From an uncultured Chloroflexia bacterium (GTDB lineage: Bacteria > Chloroflexota > Limnocylindria > QHBO01): a DNA stretch of 64,000 nt. Where the stretch lies: NCBI GenBank assembly GCA_963844415.1, contig CAWJOA010000006.1:354855-418854 (forward strand). Direction: 5' to 3'. This document shows, one piece after another, positions 5,290 to 57,681 of this stretch. The notes below the pieces were generated by a model, which was not told the origin of the DNA, searched no databases, and saw only the letters and a program-made list of their open reading frames with translations. Both the position numbers and the translations under genes were made by a program. The stretch's first letter is position 1. Each line of letters begins with the position of its first letter.

Positions 5290-5796
5290 TTACTCCCGCG
5301 GACGTCTCGCGATCACCAGGAGCCCGGCGCCGCCCAGCAGCAGGAGCCCGGTCGCGACGAGGGCGCTGGTCTGCCACCCGGCCGGCATCGCGACGTTGGG
5401 GATCGGCCCGCCACCGCCCGCGGGAGTTGCCGCCGGCGCCGCCGCTACCACGACGATCTGCCCGGTCATGTCGGGGTGCGGCGTGCACAGGTACGTGTAC
5501 GTGCCCGGCGTCGTAAACGTGAAGCTGAACGACGCGCCCTGCGCCAGGTCGCCGGAGTCGAACGCGCCGGCCGTGCTCGTCGCGGTGTGCGCGACCGCGT
5601 CCTCATTCGTCCACGTCACGGTGTCGCCGGCGGTGATCGTGAGCATCGGCGGGGAGAAGGCGAAGTCGGCGATCGTCACCGCGTGCGTTGCCGCCCGCGC
5701 CATCTCGATCGACCCGAGCACGAACAGGATCAATGCCGCCAGCAACAGGGCCAGCGCGCCGCGCCGGGCAGTGGATGCGGCCATCGGTCGGGTCAC
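5290..5796 (-). CDS. membrane-anchored type-1 copper cupredoxin (amicyanin-like, ligands H...C-x2-H-x2-M) with signal peptide and C-terminal TM anchor
   Basis: ORF 5290..5796: signal peptide, TAGDTVTWTNEDAVAHTATS...GTYTYLCTPHPDMTGQIVV, Ala/Pro/Gly linker, then C-terminal helix LVATGLLLLGGAGLLVIARRPRE. Confidence 0.8.
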   Translation of the reverse strand: MTRPMAASTARRGALALLLAALILFVLGSIEMARAATHAVTIADFAFSPPMLTITAGDTVTWTNEDAVAHTATSTAGAFDSGDLAQGASFSFTFTTPGTYTYLCTPHPDMTGQIVVVAAAPAATPAGGGGPIPNVAMPAGWQTSALVATGLLLLGGAGLLVIARRPRE

Positions 5797-5972
5797 CTCG
5801 CTCGGGACGGGATGTGGATAACTCGGTCAGATGCTAGCCAACTCGTGGACAACGGGGGTTGTCTTCGCGCGCACCCATCGGCGATCCTCTTCACGTCCCG
5901 AAGGGGCAGCTGGCCGATCCGAGATCACCTCAACGATCGCCGCGGTTCCTTCGGGACACTTCGTTGCCCGGC

Positions 5973-7198: not shown

Positions 7199-7275
<77 letters not shown>

Positions 7276-7953: not shown

Positions 7954-8135
7954 AGGTACTCCTCTGCCCCCATTGCGGCCAAGTCGATACGAAGCGGATA
8001 CGCGATGGCTCTCCGTCGATCGAGGGGCCAGAGGAATCTTTCGCAGCCTTGCAGCCGGTGGACGCAGTCTAGCACAGGTCGGCCTGTGATATATTCGCGC
8101 CGAATCTGTTACGTAGATGTACAGGACATTACATA

Positions 8136-8561
8136 GTGCCGAGAGTCGAGTTCGAGGCCGATACCGAGGACGAGCTCATCGCGTTGGCATGGCGCTGGGT
8201 CATGGGACCCCAGCGTCAGCCCGGTGCCGCCGCGAGCGGGCAGACGGCCGACCAGGAGGACCTCCGCCGGCGGCAGCTCGGCGAGGTGCTCAACGCCATC
8301 CGCGGGATCGACAGCCGTCGCCTGCTGCGCGAGGTGGCGGAGCTCTCAACGCGCAATGCCGCGCTGGTCCTCGACGCCGACCTGGCGCAGCGGTATGGCA
8401 AGCGCACCGGCACGGCCTTCGCGGGAATCGTGGCCGGCCCGAACAAGGTCATGCGACGGGTGGCGAGGCGAGACCTGATCAGCTGGGACGCCGACGCTCG
8501 CGGGTATCGCATGGACCCGTCGGATGCCGAGGTTGTCCTGGAGCGCTGGCCCGGATCCTGA
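8136..8561 (+). CDS. hypothetical protein (141 aa, GTG start)
   Basis: ORF 8136..8561, preceded by the only AT-rich stretch in the area (about 8080-8135: tgtgatatattcgcgccgaatctgttacgtagatgtacaggacattacat), divergent from the ABM gene. Confidence 0.4.
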   Translation: MPRVEFEADTEDELIALAWRWVMGPQRQPGAAASGQTADQEDLRRRQLGEVLNAIRGIDSRRLLREVAELSTRNAALVLDADLAQRYGKRTGTAFAGIVAGPNKVMRRVARRDLISWDADARGYRMDPSDAEVVLERWPGS

Positions 8562-8573
8562 CACCACCTGCCA

Positions 8574-9398
8574 TCAGTGGGGAATCCGGTATCCGGCGCC
8601 GACCGCCTCCTCCAGGCGCAGCGGCGGAAAGCCATCCGCGAGCTCCGGCGCGAGCAGCTGGTAGATGTCGTGCTCGTCGGGGATGCCGCGAAGGCGGTGC
8701 GTTCCGAGATGGCGCATCTCGTACACGGACGCATCGGCCACGGCAGCGTGCACGGCGCGCGACAGCAGGATCTGCCCTCCGTGGCCGCAGGCGCACAGGC
8801 GCGCGGTCGCGTTCACGCTGATGCCCTCGTAGCCGGTCGCGGTGCGCGTCGGACGCCCGGTGTGGAGGCCGATCCGAACCCGAACCGAGCGGCCATCGGG
8901 CCAGGCGTGGGAGGCCATCGCGCGCTGGACCTGGACCGCGGCCTCGACGGCGGCGGTCGCCGAGGGGAAGACCGCGAAGAACTCGTCGGCGCGGGCATCG
9001 ACCTCGAAGCCGCCGCCGGTGCGCACGGCCGCGCGCTCGATGCGGCGGACGGCATTGAGCATCGGTCCGTATCGGTCCTCGAGCTCGGCGAGGTGAAGGC
9101 TCGAGCCCTCGACATCGGCGAAGAGCAGCGTGAGCTGGCCCGTCGGCAGCTTCGGGCGGATCTGGCCGTCGATGAACCCGACCGGTAGGATGCCGTGGCG
9201 CTTGGCCGCCTTCAGCAGCCGTGTCCGGGCGCGATCACGGGACGCGTCGTCCTCGAACAGGACGCGGTTGAACCGGGCCAGGGCATTGCGGACATGGGCC
9301 TCGTCGTGGATCGGGAGGCGGCGCTTGCCTGCGGAGTCGATGTAGGCGAAGGCGCTGTCGGGGAGCTTGGCCCGTTCGCGCTGGCGGAGGTCGGCCAT
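8574..9398 (-). CDS. class III adenylate/guanylate cyclase with about 75-aa N-terminal domain of unknown function
   Basis: From internal ATG at 9398 (MADLRQRERAKLPDSAFAYID...): LTLLFADVEGSS...RVRIGLHTGRP...ISVNATARL are class III cyclase catalytic-core motifs. The upstream part of ORF 8574..9833 is Arg/Ser-rich junk. Confidence 0.7.
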   Translation of the reverse strand: MADLRQRERAKLPDSAFAYIDSAGKRRLPIHDEAHVRNALARFNRVLFEDDASRDRARTRLLKAAKRHGILPVGFIDGQIRPKLPTGQLTLLFADVEGSSLHLAELEDRYGPMLNAVRRIERAAVRTGGGFEVDARADEFFAVFPSATAAVEAAVQVQRAMASHAWPDGRSVRVRIGLHTGRPTRTATGYEGISVNATARLCACGHGGQILLSRAVHAAVADASVYEMRHLGTHRLRGIPDEHDIYQLLAPELADGFPPLRLEEAVGAGYRIPH

Positions 9399-9414
9399 AC
9401 CGGCCAATGATCGC

Positions 9415-10599
9415 TCAGACGGCGGTGGCCCGCCTCCGCCCCTCCATCCCCAGCGACGAGCTCCGAGCATCCGACCGCAGGCGGAGCAGCAGCTGGCGCC
9501 CGGCCAGGTATGAACCGATGCCGACCGCGAACACGAGGCCGTCCAGTGGCACGACGCCGGAGACGTCGAGCGCGCCGAAGATGATCGCCAGGCCGATCCC
9601 GAGGCCGGACTCCATGAGCTGCGTCGGGATCCGTCTCGCCCCGACCCGGCGGTCGGACGACCAGACGCCCCATCGCGAGGTCGTGCAGCGCCCCGCACAG
9701 CAGCCGGTGAAGAAGCATCCGAGCCGGCCGATGCCGACGCCGACGAAGAACGCCGGCGCCGCGGCGTCGAGGAAGGGCAGGACCGGCAGTCCGAGCGCCA
9801 GCATCGCGACCACCGCGGCGATCGGCGCCGCACCGATTGACCCGTCGATCGACCAGCCCTCGCTGAGCGATCGTCGCCACTGTCGTGGCCGCAGGACGAT
9901 GTACCACAGCTTCGCCCCGGCGATCCCGCCGAGGACGCCGACCACCGCGACGACCAGGGCCGGTCCGGGAGCGATGCCCTCGAAGGAGAGGAACCACAGC
10001 AGCGCGAGGATCCCGACGACGATCCCGATCGCGCAGAGCGCCGTCCAGCTGCCGTGGATGACGGCCGGCATCGGCGTCAGGCGCACGAGCGGGCTCCAGC
10101 GCGTGTGGACCGGCCCGAAGGGGGCGTCGGTGAGGCGCCAGCGGAGCCACGACCAGCGAGCGCGGGGGAGCGTCTGGCCGCCCCTGGCGGAGGTCGCCCG
10201 CGTGGGACCGGCGCCAGGCGCCCGGATGAGCTCGGCGGTCACGGTCCAGTCGCCGGGGTTGAGACCGAAGACGTGGGTCGTCACCGACACCGGCCCGCTG
10301 CCCGGCACGACGCGCTCGACCCGCTCGTCGACGCTGAACGTGTCGCCCGGCCGCGGCTTCCCGTTGATGGCCTCGCGCCGACCGCGGAAGCGGACGGTCG
10401 CGGCAAACGCCTGGCCCTGCGCGCCGGGGTCGAACCGGTGGCTGACCGCGAGGCCCTCGTGCCGGGCGTCGGCCGCGAGCTCGGCCTGGGTCCGTCCGGC
10501 CTGGACCGCATCGGTCGACGGGCGTGCCTTCACCGCTCGTTGGCGGGGCCGAAACCCGCGCCGGCGGCTCATCGTGGATCCTCGGTCATGCGCCAGCAC
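9415..10599 (-). CDS. Lgt (COG0682, prolipoprotein diacylglyceryl transferase)-like polytopic membrane protein with about 170-aa N-terminal non-membrane domain
   Basis: C-terminal 220 aa has 6-7 TM helices and the GRLGCFFTGCCAGR box resembling the Lgt-family signature region; the N-terminal domain (..TFSVDERVERVVPGSGPVSVTTHVFGLNPGDWTV..) has no recognised family. Confidence 0.45.
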   Translation of the reverse strand: MLAHDRGSTMSRRRGFRPRQRAVKARPSTDAVQAGRTQAELAADARHEGLAVSHRFDPGAQGQAFAATVRFRGRREAINGKPRPGDTFSVDERVERVVPGSGPVSVTTHVFGLNPGDWTVTAELIRAPGAGPTRATSARGGQTLPRARWSWLRWRLTDAPFGPVHTRWSPLVRLTPMPAVIHGSWTALCAIGIVVGILALLWFLSFEGIAPGPALVVAVVGVLGGIAGAKLWYIVLRPRQWRRSLSEGWSIDGSIGAAPIAAVVAMLALGLPVLPFLDAAAPAFFVGVGIGRLGCFFTGCCAGRCTTSRWGVWSSDRRVGARRIPTQLMESGLGIGLAIIFGALDVSGVVPLDGLVFAVGIGSYLAGRQLLLRLRSDARSSSLGMEGRRRATAV

Positions 10600-45550: not shown

Positions 45551-45967
45551 GTGACCGAGCACGCGGAGACCGGCGGGGATCAGGCCAGGCACGTCTGGAT
45601 CGTCGAGGACGATCCGGCGGCGGCGACCCTCGCAGCCGAGCTGTGCGAGGGATGGGGCGCGCAGGTCTCGGTCTTTCGGGCACCGCTGCCGTTCCTCTCC
45701 GCGCTCAGGGATCGGCCGCAGCCGACCGCGGTCGTGCTCGACTGGCGGCTCGAGCGCGAGCTGAGCGCCGGGCTGTTCCTCGCGACGCGGCACCGGTACC
45801 CGCGCCTGCCGGTCATCTATTGGACCGGGCACGCCGCCGGGGCGCTGCCGTCGATGATCACCGACGACGCGCTGACGACGGTCGTCGACAAGGCCGATGG
45901 CACCGGTCCGTTCGAGCGTGCCCTCGACTGGGCGAGCCGCGTCGGGGCCGAGGAGCCCGCGCCCTAG
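45551..45967 (+). CDS. stand-alone response-regulator receiver domain protein (CheY-like, no output domain)
   Basis: GTG 45551; [18 protein letters not shown] (acidic pocket DD), VVLDWRL (phospho-acceptor D), downstream T/K positions plausible. Confidence 0.6.
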
Positions 45968-47199
45968 GCGCGGCCGAGCGCCAGGACGGCGTTCATGCCG
46001 CCGAACCCGAACGAGTTCGTCACCGCCGCCTCGACGCGCCCGGGTCGCGCACCGACGAGGACGTCGAGGTCGATGGTCGGGTCGAGCGTGCGCAGGTTGC
46101 AGGTGCCGGGCAGGATCTCGCGCTGGAGCGCGAGCGCGGTGATGGCCGCCTCGACCGCCCCCGACGCACCGAGGGCGTGGCCATACAGCCCCTTCGTGCC
46201 CGACACCGCCAACCCGTCGGCGTTAACGCCGAACGCCGCGCGGATGGCCCGTGCCTCGGCGGGCTCGTTGAGTGGCGTGCTCGAGCCGTGGGCGTTGACG
46301 TAGCCGACCTTCTCGGGCGCAAGGGCGGCGTCGGCGAGGGCGTCGCGGATGGCGCGGGCCGCGTCCCGGCCGTCCGGTCGCGGGGCGGTCATGTGGTAGG
46401 CGTCGTTGCTGGCACCGAAGCCGAGCACCTCGGCGATGGCGGTCGCACCGCGCGAGCGAGCCGCCTCGAGCTCCTCGAGGACGAGGATGGCGGCCGCCTC
46501 GCCCATCACGAAGCCGTCACGGTCGCGGTCGAAGGGCCGCGAGGCGCTCGCCGGGTCGTCGTTGCGGCCGGAGAGGACGCGGATGAGGGCGAAGGCCCCG
46601 AAGGTCAACGGCGCGAGTGGCGCCTCGGAGCCGCCGGCCAGGGCGAGGTCGACGGTGCCGTCGCGGATGGCGTGGAAGGCCTGGCCGATGGCCATCGCCC
46701 CCGAGGCGCACGAGTTGGCGTTGCCGACCGACGGCCCGGTCAGCCCGAGGTCGAGCGCGACGTTGCTCGCCCCGGCACCGCCGAACACGGCGAGGGCCAG
46801 CGTGGCCGAGACGCCGCGCGTCCCCTTCGTCACGTAGGCGGCGTGCTGCTCCTCGCCGTAGGCGACGCCGCCGAGCGCGGAGCCGATCCAGACGCCGGTC
46901 CGCGACGCCACGCCGTTGTCGAGCGACAGGCCGGCGTGCTCGACCGCCAGCCGCGCGGCGGTCACGCTGAGGGCGCTGAACCGATCCAGGCGCCGCGCGC
47001 GGCGCGCGTCGAGGTGGCTGGCCGGGTCGAAGTCGTCGATCTGCGCGGCGATCCGCGACGGGAACGACGAGGCGTCGAAGCGGTCGATCGGCCGCACCGC
47101 CGAGCGGTCGGCGAGGACGCCGCTCCACAGGGCCTCGACGCCCGTGCCGATCGGCGTCACCGCGCCGATGCCGGTGATGACGACGCGCCGCCGGCTCAT
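45964..47199 (-). CDS. fabF: 3-oxoacyl-[acyl-carrier-protein] synthase II
   Basis: From ATG 47199 (MSRRRVVITGIGAVTPIG..); active-site Cys in NANSCASGAMAIG, His in YHMTAP and NAHGSSTPLNE, C-terminal NSFGFGGMNAVLAL. Confidence 0.85.
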   Translation of the reverse strand: MSRRRVVITGIGAVTPIGTGVEALWSGVLADRSAVRPIDRFDASSFPSRIAAQIDDFDPASHLDARRARRLDRFSALSVTAARLAVEHAGLSLDNGVASRTGVWIGSALGGVAYGEEQHAAYVTKGTRGVSATLALAVFGGAGASNVALDLGLTGPSVGNANSCASGAMAIGQAFHAIRDGTVDLALAGGSEAPLAPLTFGAFALIRVLSGRNDDPASASRPFDRDRDGFVMGEAAAILVLEELEAARSRGATAIAEVLGFGASNDAYHMTAPRPDGRDAARAIRDALADAALAPEKVGYVNAHGSSTPLNEPAEARAIRAAFGVNADGLAVSGTKGLYGHALGASGAVEAAITALALQREILPGTCNLRTLDPTIDLDVLVGARPGRVEAAVTNSFGFGGMNAVLALGRA

Positions 47200-47640
47200 C
47201 GGCCGTTCGCCTCCGCGAGCTCCTTCACCCGGCGCAGCGTGCGCCCGGCGATGGCCTCGATGAACTGTGGGCCGATGACGTGCTCGGCGGCGAAGCCGCC
47301 GATGCAGCGGCCAGTCCAGCTCGAGCTCGTGCTCGATGCTCACATCGAGCACGCCGTCGCGCTCCTCGAATTGCCAGGCGACCTCCATCCCGCGCGTCAC
47401 GCCGCCGGTGTGGATGAACTCGATCCGGCGCTGCTCGGGCAGCGGCCGCTGGATGGCGCGCCAGCTGACCGGGATCGGGCCGCGTCGCGCGCCCATCTCG
47501 AAGTGGCGCTCCGCCCGATCGGGCAGGCGGCGGACGTATCGGTAGTGGGGGAGGATCTCCGGCCAGCGCTCGACCTCGGCCGCCAGGTCGAAGACCCGCT
47601 CGAACGGCGCGTGCATGACCTGGTGGATCCAGCTTTTCAC
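47196..47640 (-). pseudogene. SRPBCC (polyketide-cyclase/START-like lipid-binding) protein with a frameshift about 40 codons before its end; as written it runs in-frame into fabF
   Basis: ORF 45964..47640 N-terminal 147 aa (MKSWIHQVMHAPFERVFDLAAEVERWPEI...). After ..ELELDWPL the sensible continuation IGGFAAEHVIGPQFIEAIAGRTLRRVKELAEANGR* is in the +1 frame and ends with TGA overlapping the fabF ATG (ATGA). Confidence 0.5.
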
Positions 47641-48806
47641 GGGCGGAGGACCTCGACGAGCGCGTGCGGCGCGAGGGCGTCGGTGGCAGGGCGGCAGTCG
47701 CCGAGCGCCGAACCCAGCCGCAGCGCGGCGCTCGGCCGCTCGTCGAGCCTGGCCAGCGCGTGCTCGAGCAGCGGCGGCACGGCCAGGAAGCCCTGGACGA
47801 GCCAGCTGAGGGTCGACTTGGCGGCGAAGGCCGCGCGGCGCTCGCGCCGGTAGGCGGCCGACGGATCGCCTTCGCCGATGATGGCGTCTGTCGCCGCTCG
47901 CGCGGAACGGAGCGCGCGATGGATGCCCTCGCCGGTGAACGGGTCGACGAAGCCGGCCGCATCGCCGACCAGCATCCAGCCCGGACCGGCAACGTCCGAG
48001 ACGCGATGCCCGATCGGCGACGCGCCACGGATCGGCGTCAGGCGGTCACGTCCGGCGAGCCGCGCCGCGACGGCGGGGAGGCCGGCGAGCGCCGCGGCGA
48101 AGCGCTCGGCCGCCGGCGTGCGGCCGTTCATCGGCAGCGCCATCCCGACGTTGAGCTGGCCGTCCGGCAGTGGCGCGAGCCCGACGTAGTAGCCGCGGCC
48201 GACGTGCATCTCGCCGTGGTCGGCCAGCTCCGGATCGCCGGCGTGGTGCGCGACGAGCCCCAGGCGGCGTGGGAATCGCACCGGGCGCTCGACGCCGGTC
48301 AGCCGGGCGACCGTGGAGCGGACGCCGTCGGCGCCGACGACGAGATCGGCGTTGATCGTGCGGGCTGTGCCGTCGCCGGATCGCACCGTGGCGCCGGTCA
48401 CGCGCCCGCCGGCGACCTCGAGCGCGGCGAGGCGGGTGCCCTCGACCAGCTCGGCGCCACTGTCCGCGGCGTGGGCCGCGAGGCGCGCGTCGAAGCGGGT
48501 CCGGTCCAGGCCCCACGCCGTGCGCGCGCCGCCGCGATCGGCGTAGGTGATCATCGCGCTCCGCCGACCCGCCACCATCCGCATCCCGGTCAAGGGGATC
48601 GCGTCCGCCTGCCACGCCTCGGGTGCGAGCCCGATGCGGGCGAGCTCCTCGACGATCCGCGGGCTCGCGTACTCGGCGCAGGCCTTCGGGCGCGGATGGT
48701 GGGCAGCCTCGAGCAGGATGACGCTCGCCCCGGATCGCGCCAGCCCGGCGGCCAGCGCCGACCCGGCTGGGCCTGCCCCGGCGATCAGGACGTCGCAGCG
48801 GGTCAT
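47637..48806 (-). CDS. FAD-dependent oxidoreductase of the geranylgeranyl-reductase family
   Basis: From ATG 48806 (MTRCDVLIAGAGPAGSALAAGL..); MLVGDAAGFVDPFTGEGIHRAL is the GGR-family GDAAG..P..GEG motif. Confidence 0.75.
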   Translation of the reverse strand: MTRCDVLIAGAGPAGSALAAGLARSGASVILLEAAHHPRPKACAEYASPRIVEELARIGLAPEAWQADAIPLTGMRMVAGRRSAMITYADRGGARTAWGLDRTRFDARLAAHAADSGAELVEGTRLAALEVAGGRVTGATVRSGDGTARTINADLVVGADGVRSTVARLTGVERPVRFPRRLGLVAHHAGDPELADHGEMHVGRGYYVGLAPLPDGQLNVGMALPMNGRTPAAERFAAALAGLPAVAARLAGRDRLTPIRGASPIGHRVSDVAGPGWMLVGDAAGFVDPFTGEGIHRALRSARAATDAIIGEGDPSAAYRRERRAAFAAKSTLSWLVQGFLAVPPLLEHALARLDERPSAALRLGSALGDCRPATDALAPHALVEVLRP

Positions 48807-49504
48807 CGGGTCGCCGCGGTGACGACGCGCGGCAGCCAGCCCGGCGAGCGCCAGCGCGGCGTCAGCCCGGCCTCGGCGAGCAGGCCGTCGAGCTCGGGCA
48901 CCGTGTAGGCGCGCCGGGCGGAGGCCATGCCGTCGACCCGGGTGACCGAGCTGCGCCCGAGGGCCATGACCGACACCCACGTCGCTGCCAGGGGCAGGGG
49001 CCCGCGCCGGAGGTCGTTCACCACCACGCCGTGGCGGGACACGCGGCGCAGCTCGCGCAGGGCCGTGACGGCCGCATCCGGCGCGAAGTGATGGACGAGG
49101 AGCGAGCAATGGGCCACGTCGACGACGCCGTCCTCGAGCGGCAGCGCGAGGGCATCGGCATCCAGGACCTCGACGTTCGGGACGCGCGCCAGGCGGTCGC
49201 GCGCAACAGCGAGCACGGCGGGGTTGCTGTCTGCCGCGACGACGTGCCAGCCGCGGCGCGCGAAGGCGACCGGCATGTCGCCGGCCCCGGTGCCCACGTC
49301 GAGGATCCGGGTCGCGTCGCGACCTGCCACCAAAGTCGAGATCGCGCGGACGCTCGCATCGGTCCCGCCCGGCAGGCGATTCAGGCGCGCGAGATCGGCG
49401 AGGTTGGCTTCGACCTCCGATCGCGACAGGCGACCGGAGTCCAGCAGCTCGGCCGCATCGGTCCGGGCGCCGAGTGCGAGAAGTCGGCGCATGCCGATGG
49501 CCAT
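48803..49504 (-). CDS. class I SAM-dependent methyltransferase
   Basis: From ATG 49504; ILDVGTGAGDMPVAFARRG (motif I), VVAADSNP, DVAHCSLLVHHF (motif II/III); ATGA-coupled to the downstream reductase gene. Confidence 0.7.
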   Translation of the reverse strand: MAIGMRRLLALGARTDAAELLDSGRLSRSEVEANLADLARLNRLPGGTDASVRAISTLVAGRDATRILDVGTGAGDMPVAFARRGWHVVAADSNPAVLAVARDRLARVPNVEVLDADALALPLEDGVVDVAHCSLLVHHFAPDAAVTALRELRRVSRHGVVVNDLRRGPLPLAATWVSVMALGRSSVTRVDGMASARRAYTVPELDGLLAEAGLTPRWRSPGWLPRVVTAATR

Positions 49505-49591
49505 CTGGGGTGCGCACCTCGTCGTGGGAGGCCCATCTTCGATGCCGCACGCGGAATCCGCAACGCGGGCTCCGGCGTACACTGAGCCCCG

Positions 49592-50596
49592 ATGACCGCG
49601 ACCGCACCACCGGGCACGGATGTGCCCGATCACGACCAGACCGATACCCGCCGCCGCACGGTGGTGATCATCGGCTCCGGTCCCGCCGGGCTCACCGCGG
49701 CGATCTACGCGGCGCGTGCCAACCTCGAGCCGCTCGTGATCGCCGGCAATGTGCCGATGGGCCAGCTCATGATCACCTCGGACGTCGAGAACTACCCCGG
49801 CTTCCCCGACGGGATCCAGGGTCCGGAGTTGATGCAGAAGTTCCGCGACCAGGCCGCCCGCTTCGGCGCCACGATCCTCGACCGCGACGCGACGCGCGTC
49901 GACTTCGGGTCGCGGCCGTTCGGGATCTGGGTCGGGGAGGACGAGTACCGCGCCGATGCCGTCATCGTCGCCACCGGCGCATCGGCCCTCTGGCTTGGCT
50001 TGCCGACCGAGGAGGAGTTCCGGGGGCGCGGCGTCAGTGCCTGCGCGACGTGCGACGGCTTCTTCTTCCGCGGTCGCGAGGTGGCCGTCGTCGGCGGAGG
50101 CGACACCGCGCTCGAGGAGGCGACGTTCCTGACCCGGTTCGCGGACAAGGTGACCATGCTCGTTCGCCGCGACGAGTTCCGCGGCAGCAAGATCATGCAG
50201 GACCGCGCGAGCCGCGACCCGAAGATCGAGATCCTCTTCAACAAGGAGGTCACCGAGGTCCGCGGCGAGATGACCGTCAGCGCGCTCCAGGTGCGCGACA
50301 CGGCCACCGGCGAGGAGAGCGAGCTCGCGGTGCAGGGGATGTTCGTCGCGATCGGCTACAAGCCGAACACCGACCTCTTCACCGGGCAGCTCGATATCGG
50401 TGAGGGAGGCTACCTCGAGGTGGTCGGGGAAACGGGCTCGAAGGTCGAGGGCGTCTTCATCGCCGGCGACGTCCACGACCATCACTACCGCCAGGCCGTG
50501 ACCGCCGCCGGTGACGGCTGCAAGGCGGCGATCGACGCCGAGCGCTGGCTCGCGTCGGTCGGCGAGATCGAGGCCTCGACCGCGACGAACTGGTAG
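49592..50596 (+). CDS. trxB: thioredoxin-disulfide reductase
   Basis: ORF 49592..50596: VVIIGSGPAGLTAAIYAAR, redox CATCDG, second NADPH fold VAVVGGGDTALEEA. Confidence 0.9.
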   Translation: MTATAPPGTDVPDHDQTDTRRRTVVIIGSGPAGLTAAIYAARANLEPLVIAGNVPMGQLMITSDVENYPGFPDGIQGPELMQKFRDQAARFGATILDRDATRVDFGSRPFGIWVGEDEYRADAVIVATGASALWLGLPTEEEFRGRGVSACATCDGFFFRGREVAVVGGGDTALEEATFLTRFADKVTMLVRRDEFRGSKIMQDRASRDPKIEILFNKEVTEVRGEMTVSALQVRDTATGEESELAVQGMFVAIGYKPNTDLFTGQLDIGEGGYLEVVGETGSKVEGVFIAGDVHDHHYRQAVTAAGDGCKAAIDAERWLASVGEIEASTATNW

Positions 50597-50758
50597 GCGG
50601 GCACCGACCGTCCTGCCCCGTGCAGGGACTTTCCTCCTACTGACCCATCGGTGATCTAAAGGTCTACTGCGCGCCGAGGCGGAGGGCCCCGCGCATGCCC
50701 CTTCATTTGGTTCTCCGGCCCGCAGTGGGGGAACGCTGCGACCAGGAGAACTATTTCC

Positions 50759-51367
50759 ATGCGCCTTCAGACTGATGCTGCCCCTCGTCGGCGTCGACGC
50801 CAGCTCTATGCGCTTGCCGCGCTCGCCGCAATCGGCCTCGGCACCGGCCAGATGAGCCTGGCCCTCTTCACCGACCAGGAGACCGTCGACGGCACGTTCA
50901 GCACCGGCTCGATCGTCCTCGACGACGTCAAGATCGACGCGCTGACCCTGTCGACCGGCGCGATGATGCCCGGCGACAGCGTCACCGATGACGTGGTCGT
51001 CGAGAACGACGGGACCGCGCAGCTGCGCTACGCGATGACCACGGCGAGCACGAATCCCGATGCAAAGGCACTGCGCGACGTCCTGACGTTGACGGTGAAG
51101 ACCCTCGACGTGACGACGCCGGGCACCCCGTGCGACAACTTCGACGGGAGCAATGTGCTGGCCGCCACCGTGCTCGGCGCCAGCGGTGCGTCCTTCGGCA
51201 GCCCCGCGGCTGGCGCGCAGGCTGGTGATCGCGCACTCAACGGCGGCGCGAACGAGACGCTCTGCTTCCGCGTGACGCTGCCGTCGGGGACAGGGAACGC
51301 CTACCAGTCGTCGACGACGACCACGACGTTCACCTTCGACGCCGAGCAGACCGCGAGCAACCCGTAA
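50759..51367 (+). CDS. TasA/camelysin-like secreted protein with SipW-cognate-class signal peptide
   Basis: ORF 50759..51367 with AGGAGAA RBS: n-region RRRRR, h-region LYALAALAAIGLGTG, then the class-defining post-cleavage motif SLALFTDQETVDGTFSTGSIVLD; beta-rich 200-aa body ends ..TTTTFTFDAEQ. Confidence 0.65.
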   Translation: MRLQTDAAPRRRRRQLYALAALAAIGLGTGQMSLALFTDQETVDGTFSTGSIVLDDVKIDALTLSTGAMMPGDSVTDDVVVENDGTAQLRYAMTTASTNPDAKALRDVLTLTVKTLDVTTPGTPCDNFDGSNVLAATVLGASGASFGSPAAGAQAGDRALNGGANETLCFRVTLPSGTGNAYQSSTTTTTFTFDAEQTASNP

Positions 51368-51422
51368 GGCCGGGACCGGCGGGCGGCGGCCGCGTGGCCG
51401 GCGTCAGCGGAACGGTGGATCG

Positions 51423-51962
51423 ATGGCCTCGCTGATGACCCACGCGATCCGGTGGGCACGGCGGCTCCTGTCGCTCGTCTGGCTCGCTGCCATGGTGGTC
51501 GTCGTCGCGCTGGCGGCGTGGTCTCACCTGGCGGGCCTTATCGTCGTGGCTGGCGACTCGATGGCCCCGGCGATTCCTCGCGGAAGCCTGATCCAGGTCG
51601 CGGCGATCGAGGCGGATGCGATCCGGGTCGGTGACGTCGTCACGGTGCAGGCCGACAACGGCGTCCTCGTCACGCACCGCGTGGTGCGTCTCGCCGAGCT
51701 GCCGGACGGCAAGCACCTCGAGCTACGAGGTGACGCGAACCCTGCGCCGGATCCCGTCCTCGTCCCGGCAGATGCCGTGGTCGGCCGAGTCGCGCTCAGC
51801 CTGCCGTTGGCCGGATACCTCATTGCGATGCTGGCCGGCGTTCCGGGCCTGCTGTCCATCGCATCGTCGTTGGCCGCCCTGCTGGTTGCGATCTGGCTCC
51901 TCGAGGACATCGAGGCGGCGACCGCGTCATGGTCAGGGACGACGGTGGCGCGCCTTGCCTAG
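51423..51962 (+). CDS. type I signal peptidase of the SipW / archaeal-eukaryal type (S26B, Ser/His dyad)
   Basis: ORF 51423..51962: TM anchor, catalytic Ser in GDSMAP, catalytic His in VLVTHRVV (S26A LepB would have Lys here), second TM at the C-terminus. Confidence 0.75.
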   Translation: MASLMTHAIRWARRLLSLVWLAAMVVVVALAAWSHLAGLIVVAGDSMAPAIPRGSLIQVAAIEADAIRVGDVVTVQADNGVLVTHRVVRLAELPDGKHLELRGDANPAPDPVLVPADAVVGRVALSLPLAGYLIAMLAGVPGLLSIASSLAALLVAIWLLEDIEAATASWSGTTVARLA

Positions 51963-51969
51963 GGACGTC

Positions 51970-52941
51970 GTGCGGCGGGGTAGACAAGGGGTCGCGGTGA
52001 TCGTCCTCGTCCTGACCTCGCACGTCGTCGCCGGCGGCGAAATGACCCGCGCCATTCTCGGCGACCAGGAGACCGATGCATCGGTCCTTGCCACCGCCGC
52101 CACGTTCCCCGACGTGACCGCGCCAGTTGTCTCAGCCAGCGTGATCTCGAAGACCGTGCCGTACATCCCCGGCCACATCCGACAGAGCGCGACGTACCAC
52201 GTGTACACGAACGTGACCGACACCGGGAGCGGTGTGGCGACCGATCGAGCCAACGTGAGCACCGTCACGACGGGCCAAACGGCGGTCCCGCTCGTCGCCG
52301 GGTCGTTCACCATCGGCGGTGTCGCCTACGGCTACCGGAGCGCATCCGTCACGGCGAACGCGACGCTCGCGGCCGGCGCGAAGGCGTACACGATCGCGGC
52401 CACCGACGTAGCCACCAACGCGGTGACCCAGGGCGGGTTCTCCGTCAACGTCGACAACACCCGGCCGACCGGTTCCGCGATCGCAACGACGAACGGCGGC
52501 ACGATCGTTGGGCGACCTGAGCTCAACGACACGATCACTTTCACGTTCTCCGAGGTCATTGATCCGAACAGCGTGCTCGCCGGCTGGACCGGCGGGGCGA
52601 CATCAGTCGTCGTGCGGATCGCGAACGGCGCGGGCGGCGATAGCCTCACGGTCCGGAACGCCGCGAATACCGCCCTGCTCCCGCTCGGGTCCACGAATCT
52701 GGGCGGCACTGGCTACGTCACCGCCCAACGCGACTTCGGCGCGACCGCGACGTCCTCGACCATGGTTCAGAGCGGCTCGTCGATCACGATCACGCTCGGG
52801 ACGCCATCGGGCGCCACTACCAGCCAAGCCGGCACGACGAGCATGACCTGGACACCGGCGGTCGGCGCCACCGACCGCGCCGGCAACACCTGCATGACAA
52901 CGGCGGTCACGGAGGCCGTGCCCGCGGACGTCGAGTTCTGA
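51970..52941 (+). CDS. secreted Thr/Ala/Gly-rich beta-strand protein with the same SipW-cognate-like signal motif (candidate second fibre/matrix subunit)
   Basis: GTG 51970 within ORF 51616..52941: VRRGRQGVAVIVLVLTSHVVAGGEMTRAILGDQETDASV parallels ALFTDQETVDG of the first protein; the body is low-complexity T/A/G/S-rich, alternating pattern typical of extended beta-sandwich/fibre proteins. Confidence 0.55.
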   Translation: MRRGRQGVAVIVLVLTSHVVAGGEMTRAILGDQETDASVLATAATFPDVTAPVVSASVISKTVPYIPGHIRQSATYHVYTNVTDTGSGVATDRANVSTVTTGQTAVPLVAGSFTIGGVAYGYRSASVTANATLAAGAKAYTIAATDVATNAVTQGGFSVNVDNTRPTGSAIATTNGGTIVGRPELNDTITFTFSEVIDPNSVLAGWTGGATSVVVRIANGAGGDSLTVRNAANTALLPLGSTNLGGTGYVTAQRDFGATATSSTMVQSGSSITITLGTPSGATTSQAGTTSMTWTPAVGATDRAGNTCMTTAVTEAVPADVEF

Positions 52942-52992
52942 TCCCGTCATCGGTGGCTTGACTAGACTGGCGGCCCACCCTCCACAGAGGCA

Positions 52993-55128
52993 CTACCGCC
53001 GATGGCCCGCGCCCCGCGCCCCGAGGACCTCTACGACCTGCGCATTCCGACCGACCTCGACCTGTCGCCCGACGGGCGCTTCGTTGCGTTCAGCGTCAAG
53101 GGCGTGGCACCCGGCAAGGACGGCTACCGCACCTCGCTGTGGCTCGCGCCGACCGATGGCAGCGCTCCCGCACGCCAGCTGACCGTCGGCAGCCGGAGCG
53201 ACACGACTCCGCGCTGGTCGCCGGATGGATCTCGTCTGGCCTTCCTCTCCGATCGCGGTGCCGTGCTCCAGGCCGGCGGCGGCGGCGCCAAGGCCGGCAA
53301 GCCCGAGGCGCCGAAGGAGGGCGGGACCCAGGTCTGGATCCTTCCCTTCGCCGATGGCGGCGAGGCGCGCCAGCTCACCGATCTGCCAAAGGACGTCGAG
53401 GGCCTGGACTGGGCGCCGGACGGCAAGCGGCTGGCGGTCGTCAGCACGGCCGACTCGACCGATCCGGCCAAGAAGCCCGAGCGAAAGCCGGAGGACGGCC
53501 CGGCGCCGGACACCAGGCTGATCGACACGCTGAGCTACCAGTTCAACGGCGCCGGCTTCGTCCACGAGCGGTTCACGCGCATCTGGCTCGTCGACGCCGA
53601 GGCCGGCGGGGCCGAGCTCCTCACCCGCGGCAACCACCACGACGCCGATCCGCAGTGGTCGCCGGACGGGCGCCAGATCGCGTTCGTCTCGGATCGCCAC
53701 CCGAACGCGGACCTCGGCTGGCGCAGCGACATCTACCTCGTCGACGTCCGCGGTGGCGCGGTGCGGCAGCTGTCGCCCGGTCGCGGCCGGCAGGGCTGGG
53801 GCGCGCCGTCCTGGTCGCCCGACGGCCGGTGGGTGGCCGCGATCGGGACGCGTGACTGGCGGCGCGGCGATCTGCTGCAGGCATCGGTCTGGCGCTTCCG
53901 CGTTCGCGACGGTGAGGCGGAGAACCTGCTGCCGGACGCCGATCTCGAGGCGGCCGCCGGCATGAACAGCGACCTCATTGGCGGGTGGCCGGCGCGCCCG
54001 GCGTGGATGGCCGACGGCCGCTGGGTCGTCTTCACCGCGCCCGTCGACGGCTCATTCGAGCTCTGGCGTGTCGAGATCGACGGCGGACGGATCGAGCGCC
54101 TGACCCGCGACCGGCACTACCTCGCGCGGCCGAAAATCGTGGCTCTGCCGCGCGGTGGTGCGCGCGCGGCAATGGTGCGCACGACCGCGACCCGCGCGCC
54201 GGAGATCGCGGTCGGCGACGTCCCCGCGGGGCGCCTGAGCGGGACCGATCGGATCGAGCTGCGCGAGGTCAGCGATCTCATGCGCGCCTGGTCCGACGTC
54301 CGGCTGGTGGCACCGGTCGAACGCTGGCACGAGGTCGACGGTCGCCGCGTCCAGGGCTGGTTCATCTCCTCCCCGGCGAACACGAAGCGCAACCCGGCGC
54401 CGGTCGTGCTCGAGATCCACGGCGGGCCGGCCACGCTCTACGGCTGGTCGCTGATGTGGGAGTGGCAGCTGCTCGCCGCCAACGGGATCAGCGTCTACGC
54501 CTGCAACCCGCGCGGGTCGCAGGGCTACGGATTCGACTTCCTGAACGCGAACGTCAAGGACTGGGGCGACGGACCGATGCGCGACGTCATGGCCGGGCTC
54601 GACGCGCTCATCGAGGATGGCCTCGTCGACGGCGATCGGATGGGGGTCACCGGCGGCTCGTACGGCGGCTACCTCACCTCCTGGATCGTCGGCCACACCG
54701 ATCGGTTCAAGGCCGCGGTCACCTGCCGGTCGGTCAACGACATGATCAGCCAGATGCTGTCGGGCGACATCGGTGGCCCGGTCTTCGGCCTCTTCGTCTA
54801 CGGCGTCCACCCGTGGGAGGACTGGGATCTCTACCACCGCCACTCGCCGCTGACGCACGCCACCGAGGTGACGACGCCGCTCCTCATCCAGCACGCGGAG
54901 AAGGACCTGCGCTGCACGATCACCCAGGCCGAGGAGCTCTTCGCCGTCCTGCGCTCCCTGCGCAAGACGGTGCGGCTGATGCGCACGCCCGACGAGACGC
55001 ACGAGCTGACCCGCTCCGGCACGCCGTTCCGCCGCGTCGACAACCTGCGCCTCATCGACGAGTGGTTCCGTCACTTCCTCATCGACGGGAAGACGCGTCT
55101 CCCGAAGATCGACCCCAACCGCGGCTGA
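52993..55128 (+). CDS. S9-family serine peptidase (acylaminoacyl-peptidase / prolyl-oligopeptidase type) with N-terminal TolB-like beta-propeller
   Basis: ORF 52993..55128: repeated PxWSPDG propeller blades; catalytic domain GVTGGSYGGYL (Ser), Asp and His contexts near the C-terminus. Confidence 0.85.
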   Translation, partial: LPPMARAPRPEDLYDLRIPTDLDLSPDGRFVAFSVKGVAPGKDGYRTSLWLAPTDGSAPARQLTVGSRSDTTPRWSPDGSRLAFLSDRGAVLQAGGGGAKAGKPEAPKEGGTQVWILPFADGGEARQLTDLPKDVEGLDWAPDGKRLAVVSTADSTDPAKKPERKPEDGPAPDTRLIDTLSYQFNGAGFVHERFTRIWLVDAEAGGAELLTRGNHHDADPQWSPDGRQIAFVSDRHPNADLGWRSDIYLVDVRGGAVRQLSPGRGRQGWGAPSWSPDGRWVAAIGTRDWRRGDLLQASVWRFRVRDGEAENLLPDADLEAAAGMNSDLIGGWPARPAWMADGRWVVFTAPVDGSFELWRVEIDGGRIERLTRDRHYLARPKIVALPRGGARAAMVRTTATRAPEIAVGDVPAGRLSGTDRIELREVSDLMRAWSDVRLVAPVERWHEVDGRRVQGWFISSPANTKRNPAPVVLEIHGGPATLYGWSLMWEWQLLAANGISVYACNPRGSQGYGFDFLNANVKDWGDGPMRDVMAGLDALIEDGLVDGDRMGVTGGSYGGYLTSWIVGHTDRFKAAVTCRSVNDMISQMLSGDIGGPVFGLFVYGVHPWEDWDLYHRHSPLTHATEVTTPLLIQHAEKDLRCTITQAEELFAVLRSLRKTVRLMRTPDETHELTRSGTPFRRVDNLRLIDEWFRHFLIDGKTRLPKIDPNRG

Positions 55129-56844: not shown

Positions 56845-57681
56845 ATGGAGCAGACTGGTCCGGTGAGCGCGATGCGCCGCATCGGTCCTGGCTGGTCCTG
56901 GCTCCTGCTAAGTGCCGTGGCCCTGACCGCGTGCAGCCCGGAGGTCGCATCTCCCAGCGCCCAGGCTGCTCTCCCGACGCTGCCACAGGGCAGCGCTACG
57001 GTCGACCTCGAGCCGGCATCGTTCTCGACCGAGATCACGAACCGATTCTGGCCGATGGCGCCGGGCACGCGGTGGACCTACCGCGAGATCGACGAGGAAG
57101 GCAGTGCGCTGGTCGTGGTCGTCACGGTCAGCTCGGAGACGAGGGAGATTGCAAACGGCGTGACGGCGCTCATCGTCCGTGACACGGTGACCGAGGAAGG
57201 CGAGCTCATCGAGGACACGGTCGACTGGTATGCGCAGGATGCGGAGGGCAACGTCTGGTACCTCGGGGAGGACACCGCGGAGTTCGAGGGTGGCGAGGTC
57301 GCCACGACCGAGGGATCGTGGGAGGCCGGCGTCGACGGCGCCCTACCCGGGGTCATCGTGCCGGCGAATCCGACCGACGGGATGCGCTACCGGCAGGAGT
57401 ACTACGCCGGCGAGGCCGAGGACAACGGCGAGGTCCTGAGCATCGACGAGCAGGCGGAGGTCCCGCACGGCCACTTCACCGACGTCCTGCTGACCAAGGA
57501 CACCAGCACGATCCAACCCGAGGTGCTCGAGTACAAGCTCTACGCTCCCGACATCGGTCCGGTGCTCATCTTCGGCGTTTCCGGCGGCGGCGGGCGCGAG
57601 GAGCTGGTCTCCGTCGAGACGGTCGACGCCGAAACCGCGCGAATGGCCGGCACGACCCCGCTCGGCGAACCCTATCCCTGA
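56845..57681 (+). CDS. hypothetical lipoprotein
   Basis: ORF 56845..57681: LLLSAVALTAC lipobox, acidic globular domain. Confidence 0.55.
   Translation: MEQTGPVSAMRRIGPGWSWLLLSAVALTACSPEVASPSAQAALPTLPQGSATVDLEPASFSTEITNRFWPMAPGTRWTYREIDEEGSALVVVVTVSSETREIANGVTALIVRDTVTEEGELIEDTVDWYAQDAEGNVWYLGEDTAEFEGGEVATTEGSWEAGVDGALPGVIVPANPTDGMRYRQEYYAGEAEDNGEVLSIDEQAEVPHGHFTDVLLTKDTSTIQPEVLEYKLYAPDIGPVLIFGVSGGGGREELVSVETVDAETARMAGTTPLGEPYP

What the first reader, a model, noticed from the sequence alone, without database searches (positions are those of the whole stretch)
50759..52941. Three-gene TasA/SipW-like secretion module in a high-GC actinobacterial-type genome
A 200-aa secreted protein, a type I signal peptidase with the Ser/His (SipW, S26B) dyad rather than the bacterial Ser/Lys, and a second Thr/Ala/Gly-rich secreted protein lie head-to-tail with 56- and 7-bp spacers.

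Both cargo proteins share the rare signal-peptide class in which the hydrophobic core is followed by A-(L/I)-(F/L)-(T/G)-D-Q-E-T (ALFTDQETVDG and AILGDQETDAS). In Bacillus this defines SipW-dependent cargo such as TasA/CalY.

This is the only clearly system-like, non-housekeeping module in the window. In Firmicutes the architecture builds amyloid-like biofilm fibres; an equivalent in a high-GC lineage, with a second low-complexity subunit, would be a new matrix or fibre system.
Basis: partly seen in the sequence, partly recalled or inferred. Interest (0 to 1): 0.72.

Follow-up and report, generated by a model that had tools for sequence, protein, structure and literature searches.

The report
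TasA-type fibre operon in a Chloroflexota genome
The three genes are real and form a conserved cassette: a TasA-like fibre protein, its own signal-cutting enzyme and an unnamed Ig-like helper protein. It belongs to a soil Chloroflexota bacterium rather than an actinobacterium, and it is a further example of an already recognised kind of biofilm-fibre system.

Summary
Three same-strand genes lie head to tail with 55- and 7-nt spacers.

- **P1** (50759-51367) passes the curated cut-offs of PF12389 (TasA/camelysin) and TIGR04088 (SipW-type signal).
- **P2** (51423-51962) is an archaeal/ER-type S26B signal peptidase with Ser46, His85, Asp104 and Asp110. It passes TIGR02228 and fails the LepB model.
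- **P3** (51970-52941) is not low-complexity. It belongs to a large, well-conserved family with no name: a signal peptide, a short N-terminal segment and two Ig-like beta domains.

The interpretation needs three corrections.

- The genome is Chloroflexota, class Limnocylindria, not an actinobacterium.
- TasA fibres are now known to be donor-strand-exchange polymers, not amyloid.
- TasA homologues in Chloroflexota and Actinomycetota are already published and already named by NCBI annotation.

The useful new point concerns P3. Only its first ~20 mature residues resemble P1. In each of four lineages this segment tracks the local major subunit. Natural P2-P3 fusions also exist. The best reading is that P3 is a TapA/TafC-like initiator or tip protein, but this is inferred, because both AlphaFold models were poor.

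Verdict: new member of a known kind, moderate interest.

The parts
50744..50749 (+). Shine-Dalgarno-like AGGAGA, 9 nt upstream of the P1 ATG
   Evidence: Read directly from the sequence. No sigma-70-like promoter, terminator or Rfam element was found in 50400-53200.
50759..51367 (+). P1: TasA-superfamily (PF12389) secreted protein, 202 aa, the presumed major fibre subunit
   Evidence: - PF12389 30.3 bits (cut-off 22.5) and TIGR04088 27.8 bits (cut-off 19).
- Best PDB matches are the TasA fibre 8aur and the TasA monomer 5of1 (E 0.025 alone, 0.0033 with the family profile).
- 1611 homologues, and the listed ones are at least 73% identical.
- The mature part has pI 4.05, no His and two invariant Cys.
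50759..50863 (+). P1 signal peptide (residues 1-35, RRRRR n-region, ...GQMSLA), with predicted cleavage between A35 and L36
   Evidence: P1 F37 aligns with residue 2 of the mature TasA chain in 8aur, which places the cut one residue before it. Ser at -3 and Ala at -1 are invariant in the family. The cleavage itself is inferred.
50864..50923 (+). P1 mature N-terminus LFTDQETVDGTFSTGSIVLD, the presumed donor strand
   Evidence: It is collinear with the TasA mature N-terminus AFNDIKSKDATFASGTLDLS, which is the donor strand in the TasA fibre (PMC9674648). [quoted passage not shown] It is nearly invariant in the family.
51423..51962 (+). P2: dedicated S26B (SipW/archaeal/SEC11-type) signal peptidase I, 179 aa
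   Evidence: - TIGR02228 80.9 bits (cut-off 51.85); LepB model TIGR02227 20 bits (cut-off 47).
- Best PDB matches are human SEC11C and SEC11A (E 5e-7 and 3e-6).
- In 20 homologues S46, D104 and N106 are invariant and H85 and D110 nearly so.
51558..51560 (+). Codon for Ser46, the nucleophile in GDSMAP
   Evidence: Aligns with the SEC11 SGSMEP serine. Invariant.
51675..51677 (+). Codon for His85, the general base in THR, where LepB-type enzymes have Lys
   Evidence: Aligns with the SEC11 HRV histidine. At least 90% conserved.
51970..52941 (+). P3: unnamed accessory protein, 323 aa, made of a signal peptide, a P1-like N-terminal segment and two Ig-like beta domains; the presumed fibre initiator or tip
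   Evidence: - More than 750 homologues in the 90%-clustered database and 1226 clusters at 50% identity.
- P3 itself has no Pfam or NCBIfam hit.
- It lies immediately after the peptidase in 17 of 19 distinct loci.
51970..52053 (+). P3 signal peptide (residues 1-28, ...GGEMTRA), with predicted cleavage between A28 and I29
   Evidence: The profile-profile alignment puts P3 I29-L30-G31-D32 opposite P1 L36-F37-T38-D39. The family consensus is ...GGGxxSLA|LLTDxE. Inferred.
52054..52113 (+). P3 mature N-terminus ILGDQETDASVLATAATFPD, which mimics the P1 donor strand
   Evidence: This is the only region shared by the P1 and P3 families. In four lineages the first 14 mature residues of the P3-like protein match the local major subunit best (correct pairing ranks 1 of 24).
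52117..52464 (+). P3 first beta domain (about residues 50-165), bacterial Ig-like
   Evidence: 12 of 24 homologues match PF19077 Big_13 (best E 3.8e-7). One is above the cut-off, and the matches fall at residues ~116-169. The family profile weakly matches the SiiE BIg domains in 2yn3. The AF2 model is all-beta but of low confidence.
52471..52938 (+). P3 second beta domain (about residues 168-323), ending in the conserved ...E..PxD[VIL][ED]F C-terminus
   Evidence: E315, D320 and F323 are invariant in the 24 aligned homologues. The same ending occurs in the Actinomycetota homologues (SDVEF, ADLDF, ADKEF). One fused homologue, P0040, ends in DIDL instead. There is a weak Big_5 match at the start of the domain in one homologue. 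The role of the C-terminus is unknown.

Best explanation
This is a compact three-gene operon for a TasA-superfamily extracellular fibre in a Limnocylindria (Chloroflexota) bacterium.

- P1 and P3 are exported with SipW-type signal peptides.
- P2, a membrane S26B signal peptidase (Ser46/His85/Asp), removes these peptides. The cuts fall after ...SLA35 in P1 and ...TRA28 in P3.
- Mature P1, an acidic beta-sandwich protein, is the major subunit. It polymerises by inserting its N-terminal strand (LFTDQETV.GTFSTGS) into the next subunit, as TasA does.
- P3 carries a copy of that strand in front of two complete Ig-like domains. It donates the strand to the first P1 and so starts the fibre and caps one end. 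Its Ig-like domains then act as an adhesin or an attachment module. This is the role shown for TapA and proposed for TafC, AbpB and the 'tip proteins' of AbpX loci.

Shown here: family membership of P1 and P2, the catalytic residues, conserved synteny, and the restricted, co-varying N-terminal similarity between P1 and P3.

Inferred: the cleavage sites, polymerisation, and P3's role as initiator or tip.
For: **P1 is TasA-like.**

- PF12389 and TIGR04088 are passed above their cut-offs.
- The only PDB relatives are TasA 8aur and 5of1. The alignment starts at the first residues of mature TasA. The C-terminal NAYQ...FTFDAEQ lies opposite TasA NKYQ...FSFEATQ.
- P1 is as conserved as neighbouring housekeeping genes (83% against 82-86% in L004), as expected for a self-assembling subunit.

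**P2 is the dedicated peptidase.**

- TIGR02228 is passed and the best structural relatives are SEC11A/C.
- The Ser/His/Asp residues are conserved.
- It sits between the two cargo genes in all 13 Chloroflexota loci with enough DNA, and in the Actinomycetota loci L017, L018 and L020.
- Three independent in-frame P2-P3 fusion proteins exist (P0040, P0046, P0285).

**P3 is an initiator.**

- The P1 and P3 profiles share only 30 columns spanning the cleavage site and about 20 mature residues.
- That segment differs between lineages but matches the local subunit each time. Examples are FSATSVNAGNTF against FSATTANGGNSF in L020, FTSASANPSNTF against FSNGSANPANAL in L018, and WTATGSGSGYTK against WVGAGSGSAWTK in L019.
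- The similarity extends to about +16, further than I would expect a signal peptidase to need for substrate recognition (my inference; not tested here).
- It also holds in L019, where no dedicated peptidase was found in the 12.8 kb held for that locus.
- The rest of P3 is Ig-like, like the Ig domain of TapA.

**Precedent.** TapA's N-terminus AFHDI mimics TasA's AFNDI and nucleates fibres (PMC9674648, PMC10151520). TafC is modelled the same way (PMC11821415).
Against: - No structural support was obtained. The AF2 models of P1 and P3 had mean pLDDT 49 and 47.
- Foldseek with the P1 model found jelly-roll capsid and Ena fibre proteins, but not TasA, in the top 50. The P3 model gave no significant match.
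- PF12389 covers only P1 residues 23-93. The TasA and BsaA equivalog or subfamily models score far below their cut-offs.
- P3 itself does not hit TIGR04088. In this window its N-terminus is the most diverged of its group (5 of 14 identities with P1).
- The covariation rests on four lineages, so the best attainable permutation rank is 1 in 24.
- N-terminal similarity could reflect shared peptidase recognition alone.
- No anchor (LPXTG, SLH or a transmembrane segment) is visible in P3, and no regulator lies nearby.
- There are no expression or protein data.
Confidence: 0.6

Rival explanations
1. P3 is simply a second, independent cargo of the dedicated peptidase: a secreted Ig-like adhesin or matrix protein that does not join the P1 fibre. 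Its N-terminal resemblance to P1 exists only because both must be recognised and cut by P2.
For: - TIGR04088 is itself defined on the signal peptide plus the first mature residues, so some shared sequence is expected for any SipW-type cargo.
- Co-variation of both cargo N-termini with a co-evolving peptidase would give the same lineage pattern.
- P3-like domains also occur as repeats in giant proteins of more than 1000 aa that look like ordinary adhesins.
Against: - The similarity runs to about +16 to +20 after the cut, further than I would expect a signal peptidase to need for recognition (my inference).
- It persists in L019, where no dedicated peptidase was found in the 12.8 kb held for that locus. 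In L003 the N-terminus of the P3-like protein could not be read.
- The experimentally studied analogue TapA uses exactly this segment for strand donation (PMC10151520).
Confidence: 0.25
2. The system is a bacterial counterpart of the haloarchaeal Tat-fimbriae (tafi). On this reading P1 and P3 are exported folded through the Tat pathway, as their arginine-rich n-regions suggest, and are then cut by P2. This concerns the export route and is compatible with the fibre model.
For: - P1 has RRRRR before the hydrophobic core. R11 and R13 are at least 90% conserved in the family. The P3 consensus has PRRR.
- Tafi combine Tat signals, a Ser/His peptidase (TafD), a major subunit and a strand-donating tip protein (PMC11821415).
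Against: - In a 70% GC genome Arg replaces Lys generally. An unrelated secreted protein nearby (56845-57681) also starts M..MRRIG.
- The residues after RR do not fit S/T-R-R-x-F-L-K well.
- No TatFind or TatP run was possible.
- No DUF5305/TafG-like gene or other taf genes lie in the neighbourhood.
- P2 is a small 179-aa enzyme, not the two-domain TafD.
Confidence: 0.15
3. P1 is a secreted camelysin-like metalloprotease (the literal Pfam name Peptidase_M73), not a structural fibre protein.
For: The only Pfam family hit is named 'Camelysin metallo-endopeptidase'.
Against: - P1 contains no histidine at all, so it has no HExxH or other zinc site (sequence).
- The solved family members are non-enzymatic fibre subunits (8aur; PMC9674648).
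- Conservation is concentrated in the N-terminal strand and the beta core.
Confidence: 0.03

Closest known systems
Bacillus subtilis tapA-sipW-tasA operon (TasA donor-strand-exchange fibres)
   Same: - Three genes: a major PF12389 subunit, a dedicated S26B signal peptidase and an accessory protein.
- The accessory protein's mature N-terminus copies the subunit's donor strand and is followed by an Ig-type domain.
- Both cargoes have SipW-type signals.
- The P1 N-terminus is collinear with that of TasA (PMC9674648, PMC10151520).
   Different: - The gene order is subunit-peptidase-accessory, not accessory-peptidase-subunit.
- P1 is shorter (167 aa mature) and scores 20 bits against a cut-off of 450 on the TasA equivalog.
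- P2 scores 62 bits against 190 on the Bacillus SipW equivalog.
- P3 has no detectable sequence relationship to TapA, with no NCBIfam or Pfam hit, and has two Big-like domains.
- The host is Chloroflexota.
Haloarchaeal Tat-fimbriae (TafA/TafC/TafD/TafE, Haloarcula hispanica)
   Same: A major subunit, a tip protein that donates an N-terminal strand, and a dedicated Ser/His signal peptidase needed for processing. The signal n-regions are arginine-rich (PMC11821415).
   Different: - Tafi have seven genes, including an adaptor (TafE), an anchor (TafF) and a DUF5305 partner (TafG). Here there are three genes and none of those.
[quoted passage not shown]
- Tat dependence was not tested here.
AbpX / AbpA archaeal bundling pili and their bacterial homologues (TasA superfamily)
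   Same: - An acidic subunit of about 165 mature residues (pI 4.05).
[quoted passage not shown]
- A co-located TIGR02228 peptidase and lineage-variable predicted tip proteins.
- Chloroflexota homologues are mentioned (preprint 10.64898/2026.01.04.697558; PMC9245690).
   Different: - AbpX (PDB 9sj2) is in the PDB copy searched, as one search shows. Neither P1 nor its profile matches it even at E <= 10, whereas TasA is matched.
- The peptidase linked to AbpX has ten transmembrane helices, whereas P2 is 179 aa.
- Bacterial abpX loci usually carry SLH or LPXTG anchors, sortases and c-di-GMP genes, which are absent here.

Membership tests
TasA/camelysin family (Pfam PF12389 Peptidase_M73) | Score at or above the Pfam gathering threshold | tested here: met
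   P1 scores 30.3 bits against a cut-off of 22.5, but only over residues 23-93 (profile positions 13-82 of 196). All listed homologues carry PF12389.
TasA/camelysin family (Pfam PF12389 Peptidase_M73) | Jelly-roll beta-sandwich fold like TasA (5of1/8aur) | tested here: inconclusive
   The AF2 model has mean pLDDT 49. Foldseek gives jelly-roll capsids and Ena fibres at TM about 0.3, with TasA not in the top 50.
TasA/camelysin family (Pfam PF12389 Peptidase_M73) | Polymerisation by N-terminal donor-strand exchange | not testable with these tools
   Only sequence collinearity of the P1 mature N-terminus with the TasA donor strand is available. No multimer prediction was possible.
B. subtilis TasA orthologue (NCBIfam NF046066 equivalog) | Score at or above the curated cut-off of 450 bits | tested here: not met
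   P1 scores 20.1 bits. P1 is a superfamily member, not a TasA orthologue. BsaA (TIGR04090) also fails, at 19.4 bits against 60.
SipW-dependent-type signal peptide (NCBIfam TIGR04088) | Score at or above the cut-off of 19 bits for cargo 1 (P1) | tested here: met
   27.8 bits over residues 19-52, covering the full 34-position model.
SipW-dependent-type signal peptide (NCBIfam TIGR04088) | Score at or above the cut-off of 19 bits for cargo 2 (P3) | tested here: not met
   P3 has no hit at E <= 1, and only 2 of 24 homologues hit weakly (best E 0.0026). At profile level the P3 N-terminus aligns with that of P1 (E 3.4e-9), so it works like one without passing the model.
S26B (ER/archaeal/SipW-type) signal peptidase I (NCBIfam TIGR02228) | Score at or above the cut-off of 51.85 bits, and higher than the bacterial S26A model | tested here: met
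   80.9 bits, against 20 bits on TIGR02227, whose cut-off is 47.
S26B (ER/archaeal/SipW-type) signal peptidase I (NCBIfam TIGR02228) | Ser nucleophile with a His (not Lys) general base, plus the conserved GDxN...D aspartates | tested here: met
   S46, H85, D104 and D110 align with the SEC11A/C catalytic motifs. They are invariant or at least 90% conserved in 20 homologues.
Bacillus SipW orthologue (NCBIfam NF046067 equivalog) | Score at or above the cut-off of 190 bits | tested here: not met
   61.8 bits. P2 is the same enzyme type but not an orthologue.
   P3 has no NCBIfam or Pfam family at E <= 1. The profile search of the PDB finds no TapA structure.
   30 shared columns with P1 across the cut site, lineage-matched N-termini and Big_13 matches in 12 of 24 homologues. 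Strand donation itself was not tested.
Tat-fimbriae (tafi) | Twin-arginine (Tat) signal on the subunits | tested here: inconclusive
   RR is conserved in the P1 and P3 n-regions, but the genome is 70% GC and Arg-rich. No Tat predictor was available.
Tat-fimbriae (tafi) | Accompanying TafE adaptor, TafF anchor and DUF5305 (TafG) genes | tested here: not met
   The neighbours are TrxB, a methyltransferase, an S9 peptidase and a HerA-like ATPase. There are no paralogues of P1, P2 or P3 in the window.

The most novel reading that the evidence does not exclude
The P3 ectodomain (a Big-like domain plus a second beta domain that ends in ...D[VIL][ED]F in nearly all homologues read) may be a widespread, modular initiator or tip cassette of Terrabacteria. 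It would be re-used on at least two different classes of secreted fibre subunit by swapping only a ~20-residue N-terminal strand that co-evolves with the local subunit. One class is the TasA-like proteins. The other is an unclassified ~155-aa family, AAWTA(S/T)G.GSGY...CQGAVFTIPVTL, seen in L003 and L019. In some lineages P3 is fused to its own signal peptidase, so the enzyme would release its substrate in cis.
Probability: 0.3. Interest if true: 0.55.

Novelty: new member of a known kind. Interest (0 to 1): 0.35.

Why it matters
Limnocylindria, which include the soil lineages once called Ellin6529 (my own knowledge, not checked here), are known in these data only from MAGs and metagenome contigs. 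Nothing was found in the searched literature about their TasA-type proteins.

A cassette this conserved suggests a core surface fibre that could be used for aggregation or attachment. P1 is as conserved as thioredoxin reductase, and the cassette sits among housekeeping genes.

P3 gives a name and a testable role to a large family of 'hypothetical' proteins, with more than 1200 clusters at 50% identity. It also extends the TapA principle, in which a strand-donating initiator starts the fibre, to two more phyla.

It does not change the known picture of TasA-superfamily fibres. It fills it in.

Tried and rejected
- **Source contig.** Exact look-ups of P1 and of the 314-aa public copy of P3 found no record, and the cluster listing gave no names. 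The organism was therefore inferred from flanking-gene identity to named MAGs.
- **Structure.** Both AlphaFold jobs, run on alignments of 23-24 close homologues, gave mean pLDDT 47-49. The Foldseek results are therefore only compatible with beta-sandwich or Ig-like folds and are not used as evidence.
- **Regulation.** No sigma-70-like promoter or intrinsic terminator was found. There is no Rfam family in the leader or anywhere in the window except one tRNA. The upstream DNA of 12 loci does not align convincingly.
- **Invertible element.** No convincing inverted repeats flank the cassette, although the cassette is inverted in two relatives.
- **Metalloprotease reading of PF12389.** Rejected, because P1 has no histidine.
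- **P3 as low-complexity or repeat protein.** Rejected on conservation.
- **The ~155-aa subunit of L003/L019.** No significant relation to P1 or to any PDB chain.
- **Literature.** A search for Limnocylindria plus TasA found nothing.
Full report
**1. What is there**

Three ORFs lie on the + strand.

- P1 is 50759-51367 (202 aa).
- P2 is 51423-51962 (179 aa).
- P3 is 51970-52941 (323 aa, GTG start).
- The spacers are 55 and 7 nt.
- An AGGAGA sits 9 nt before the P1 ATG.
- GC3 is 0.85-0.88, typical of coding sequence in this 70% GC window.

The neighbours are ordinary genes. Upstream lie a ketosynthase fused to a polyketide-cyclase domain, an FAD oxidoreductase, a methyltransferase and thioredoxin reductase. 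Downstream lie an S9 peptidase, a HerA-like ATPase and an ACT-domain protein. The window holds no paralogue of the three genes. No regulator, sortase or DUF5305 gene lies nearby.

**2. P1**

- It passes PF12389 (30.3 bits, cut-off 22.5) and TIGR04088 (27.8 bits, cut-off 19).
- It is far below the cut-offs of the TasA and BsaA models.
- Its only relatives among solved structures are the TasA fibre 8aur and the TasA monomer 5of1 (E 0.025, or 0.0033 with the family profile).
- The alignment puts P1 F37 opposite residue 2 of mature TasA, so cleavage is predicted after ...MSLA35.
- The mature start LFTDQETVDGTFSTGSIVLD is collinear with TasA AFNDIKSKDATFASGTLDLS. That segment is the donor strand in the TasA fibre (PMC9674648).
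- Mature P1 is acidic (pI 4.05). It has no histidine, so it is not a metalloprotease. It has two invariant cysteines.
- The 120 best homologues are 73-100% identical. Several are already named 'TasA family protein' or 'SipW-dependent-type signal peptide-containing protein' in Chloroflexota and Limnocylindrales MAGs.

**3. P2**

- It passes the archaeal/ER-type model TIGR02228 (80.9 bits, cut-off 51.85).
- It fails the bacterial LepB model (20 bits, cut-off 47) and the Bacillus SipW equivalog (61.8 bits, cut-off 190).
- Its best solved relatives are human SEC11C and SEC11A. These align Ser46 (GDSMAP), His85 (THR) and Asp104/Asp110 (GDANPAPD) with the SEC11 motifs.
- These residues are invariant or nearly so in 20 homologues.

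**4. P3**

- It has no Pfam or NCBIfam hit, but it is not low-complexity. Seventy columns are invariant among 24 homologues.
- The family is large, with more than 750 hits in the 90%-clustered database and 1226 clusters at 50% identity. It includes multi-repeat proteins of more than 1000 aa.
- Half of the aligned homologues match the bacterial Ig-like domain Big_13 at residues ~116-169. One shows a weak Big_5 match at the start of the second domain.
- The extreme C-terminus ...E..PxD[VIL][ED]F is conserved in both phyla. One fused homologue, P0040, ends in DIDL.
- The P1 and P3 family profiles share only 30 columns (hhalign 96%, E 3.4e-9). These cover the end of the signal peptide and the first ~20 mature residues: GG..SLA|LfTDqE...tF.T.

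**5. Whose genome**

The closest named P1 and P3 homologues are Candidatus Limnocylindria or Chloroflexota. One P1 homologue is labelled Methylomirabilota. Locus L004, a Ca. Limnocylindria MAG, has TrxB, the trio, the S9 peptidase and HerA in the same order, at 82-86% protein identity. The window is therefore Chloroflexota, class Limnocylindria, not an actinobacterium.

**6. Synteny**

- P1-P2-P3 occurs in that order in all 13 Chloroflexota loci with enough upstream DNA.
- Three or four Actinomycetota MAGs carry the same kind of cassette with diverged subunits.
  - L018 (Thermoleophilaceae) has subunit-peptidase-P3.
  - L017 has two PF12389 paralogues, a 199-aa ORF, the peptidase and P3.
  - L020 is similar to L017.
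- Three independent proteins are in-frame peptidase-P3 fusions (P0040, P0046, P0285). This is gene-fusion evidence for a functional link.

**7. The key comparison**

The first 14 mature residues of the P3-like protein resemble those of the local major subunit in each lineage, even though the lineages differ from one another. Examples:

| Lineage | Major subunit | P3-like protein |
|---|---|---|
| Limnocylindria | LFTDQETV.GTF | L(L/F)TD.E...STF |
| L020 | FSATSVNAGNTF | FSATTANGGNSF |
| L018 | FTSASANPSNTF | FSNGSANPANAL |
| L019 | WTATGSGSGYTK | WVGAGSGSAWTK |

The correct pairing ranks 1 of 24 permutations for three choices of representatives. No peptidase was found in the DNA held for L003 and L019, and their small subunit belongs to an unclassified family. 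The mimicry still holds in L019. In L003 the N-terminus of the P3-like protein could not be read.

**8. Mechanism**

The best reading is a TasA-type donor-strand fibre. P2 trims both cargoes, P1 polymerises through its N-terminal strand, and P3 donates a matching strand to start and cap the fibre while displaying two Ig-like domains.

This mirrors TapA, whose AFHDI N-terminus copies TasA's AFNDI and whose Ig domain is complete. TapA acts sub-stoichiometrically as an initiator (PMC10151520, PMC9674648). It also mirrors the TafC, AbpB and 'tip protein' models (PMC11821415, PMC9245690, preprint 10.64898/2026.01.04.697558).

The cleavage sites, polymerisation and P3's role are inferred. AlphaFold gave only low-confidence models (pLDDT 47-49), and the fold searches were uninformative.

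The main rival is that P3 is an unrelated co-secreted adhesin, and that the shared N-terminus serves only peptidase recognition. Whether export is by Sec or Tat is open.

**9. Novelty**

PF12389 homologues in Chloroflexota and Actinobacteriota have been reported (PMC9245690). AbpX-type homologues in Chloroflexota have been noted, along with lineage-variable tip proteins. P1 homologues are already annotated as TasA family. No paper in the searched library mentions both Limnocylindria and TasA.

This is a new member of a known kind. The modest new element is the P3 family and its strand mimicry.

Noticed in passing
L005:4811-6918 and L016:4829-6941, compared with window 49592-55128: In two related Chloroflexota MAGs the whole P1-P2-P3 cassette sits between the same TrxB and S9-peptidase genes but in the opposite orientation relative to them. 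The cassette has therefore been inverted in place as a unit. No convincing flanking inverted repeats were found in the window.
   Followed up: partly
P0040, P0046, P0285 (homologues of window 51423-52941): These are in-frame natural fusions of the S26B peptidase with the P3-like protein. The P3 signal peptide would act as an extra membrane span, and the enzyme could release its own C-terminal cargo. L013 shows one open frame across all three genes. That may be an assembly error; I assume, without having checked, that this MAG comes from error-prone long reads.
   Followed up: partly
L019:4489-5010 and 5308-6831; L003:6301-6771 and 8001-9524: Here the P3-type ectodomain (about 507 aa, with extra N-terminal domains) sits next to an unclassified ~155-aa secreted protein, AAWTA(S/T)G.GSGY...CQGAVFTIPVTL(T/S)GAS, instead of a TasA-like protein. 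No peptidase was found in the DNA held for these loci. In L019 the two N-termini again mimic each other. The small family has no significant Pfam, NCBIfam, PDB or P1-profile match.
   Followed up: partly
L017:4160-4759 and L020:32-556: The Actinomycetota versions of the cassette contain an extra conserved ORF of about 175-199 aa with a signal or anchor segment (…GADV…VEFRS…). It lies between or before the TasA-like paralogues and matches no family. It may be a further fibre component.
   Followed up: no
window 50759-50800 (P1 n-region) and 51970-51990 (P3 n-region): Runs of arginine (RRRRR in P1, RR in P3) precede the hydrophobic cores and are conserved in the families. They could be twin-arginine (Tat) signals as in haloarchaeal tafi, or simply reflect the Arg-rich usage of a 70% GC genome.
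   Followed up: partly
window 52924-52938 (P3 C-terminus ...PADVEF): The last residues of P3 (E..PxD[VIL][ED]F-COOH, with a terminal Phe) are invariant in the 24 aligned homologues and recur in the Actinomycetota homologues. One fused homologue (P0040) ends in DIDL. This suggests a functional C-terminal motif of unknown role. There is no LPXTG, SLH or transmembrane anchor.
   Followed up: no
window 45964-49610, - strand: A beta-ketoacyl synthase carries an N-terminal polyketide cyclase/dehydrase (SRPBCC) domain. It lies next to an FAD-dependent oxidoreductase (FAD_binding_3, with Lycopene_cycl and halogenase-like matches) and a SAM methyltransferase. This may be a small lipid or polyketide modification cluster, and it is conserved next to TrxB in L004, L005 and L016.
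   Followed up: partly
window 7199-7272, + strand: A single tRNA gene is the only Rfam match in the 64-kb window at gathering thresholds.
   Followed up: no
P0001 compared with window 51970-51996: The public copy of P3 (P0001, sources NCBI and ENA) is 314 aa, which implies a start 9 codons later. That start would remove the positively charged n-region of the signal peptide. The alignment with homologues supports the GTG at 51970.
   Followed up: yes
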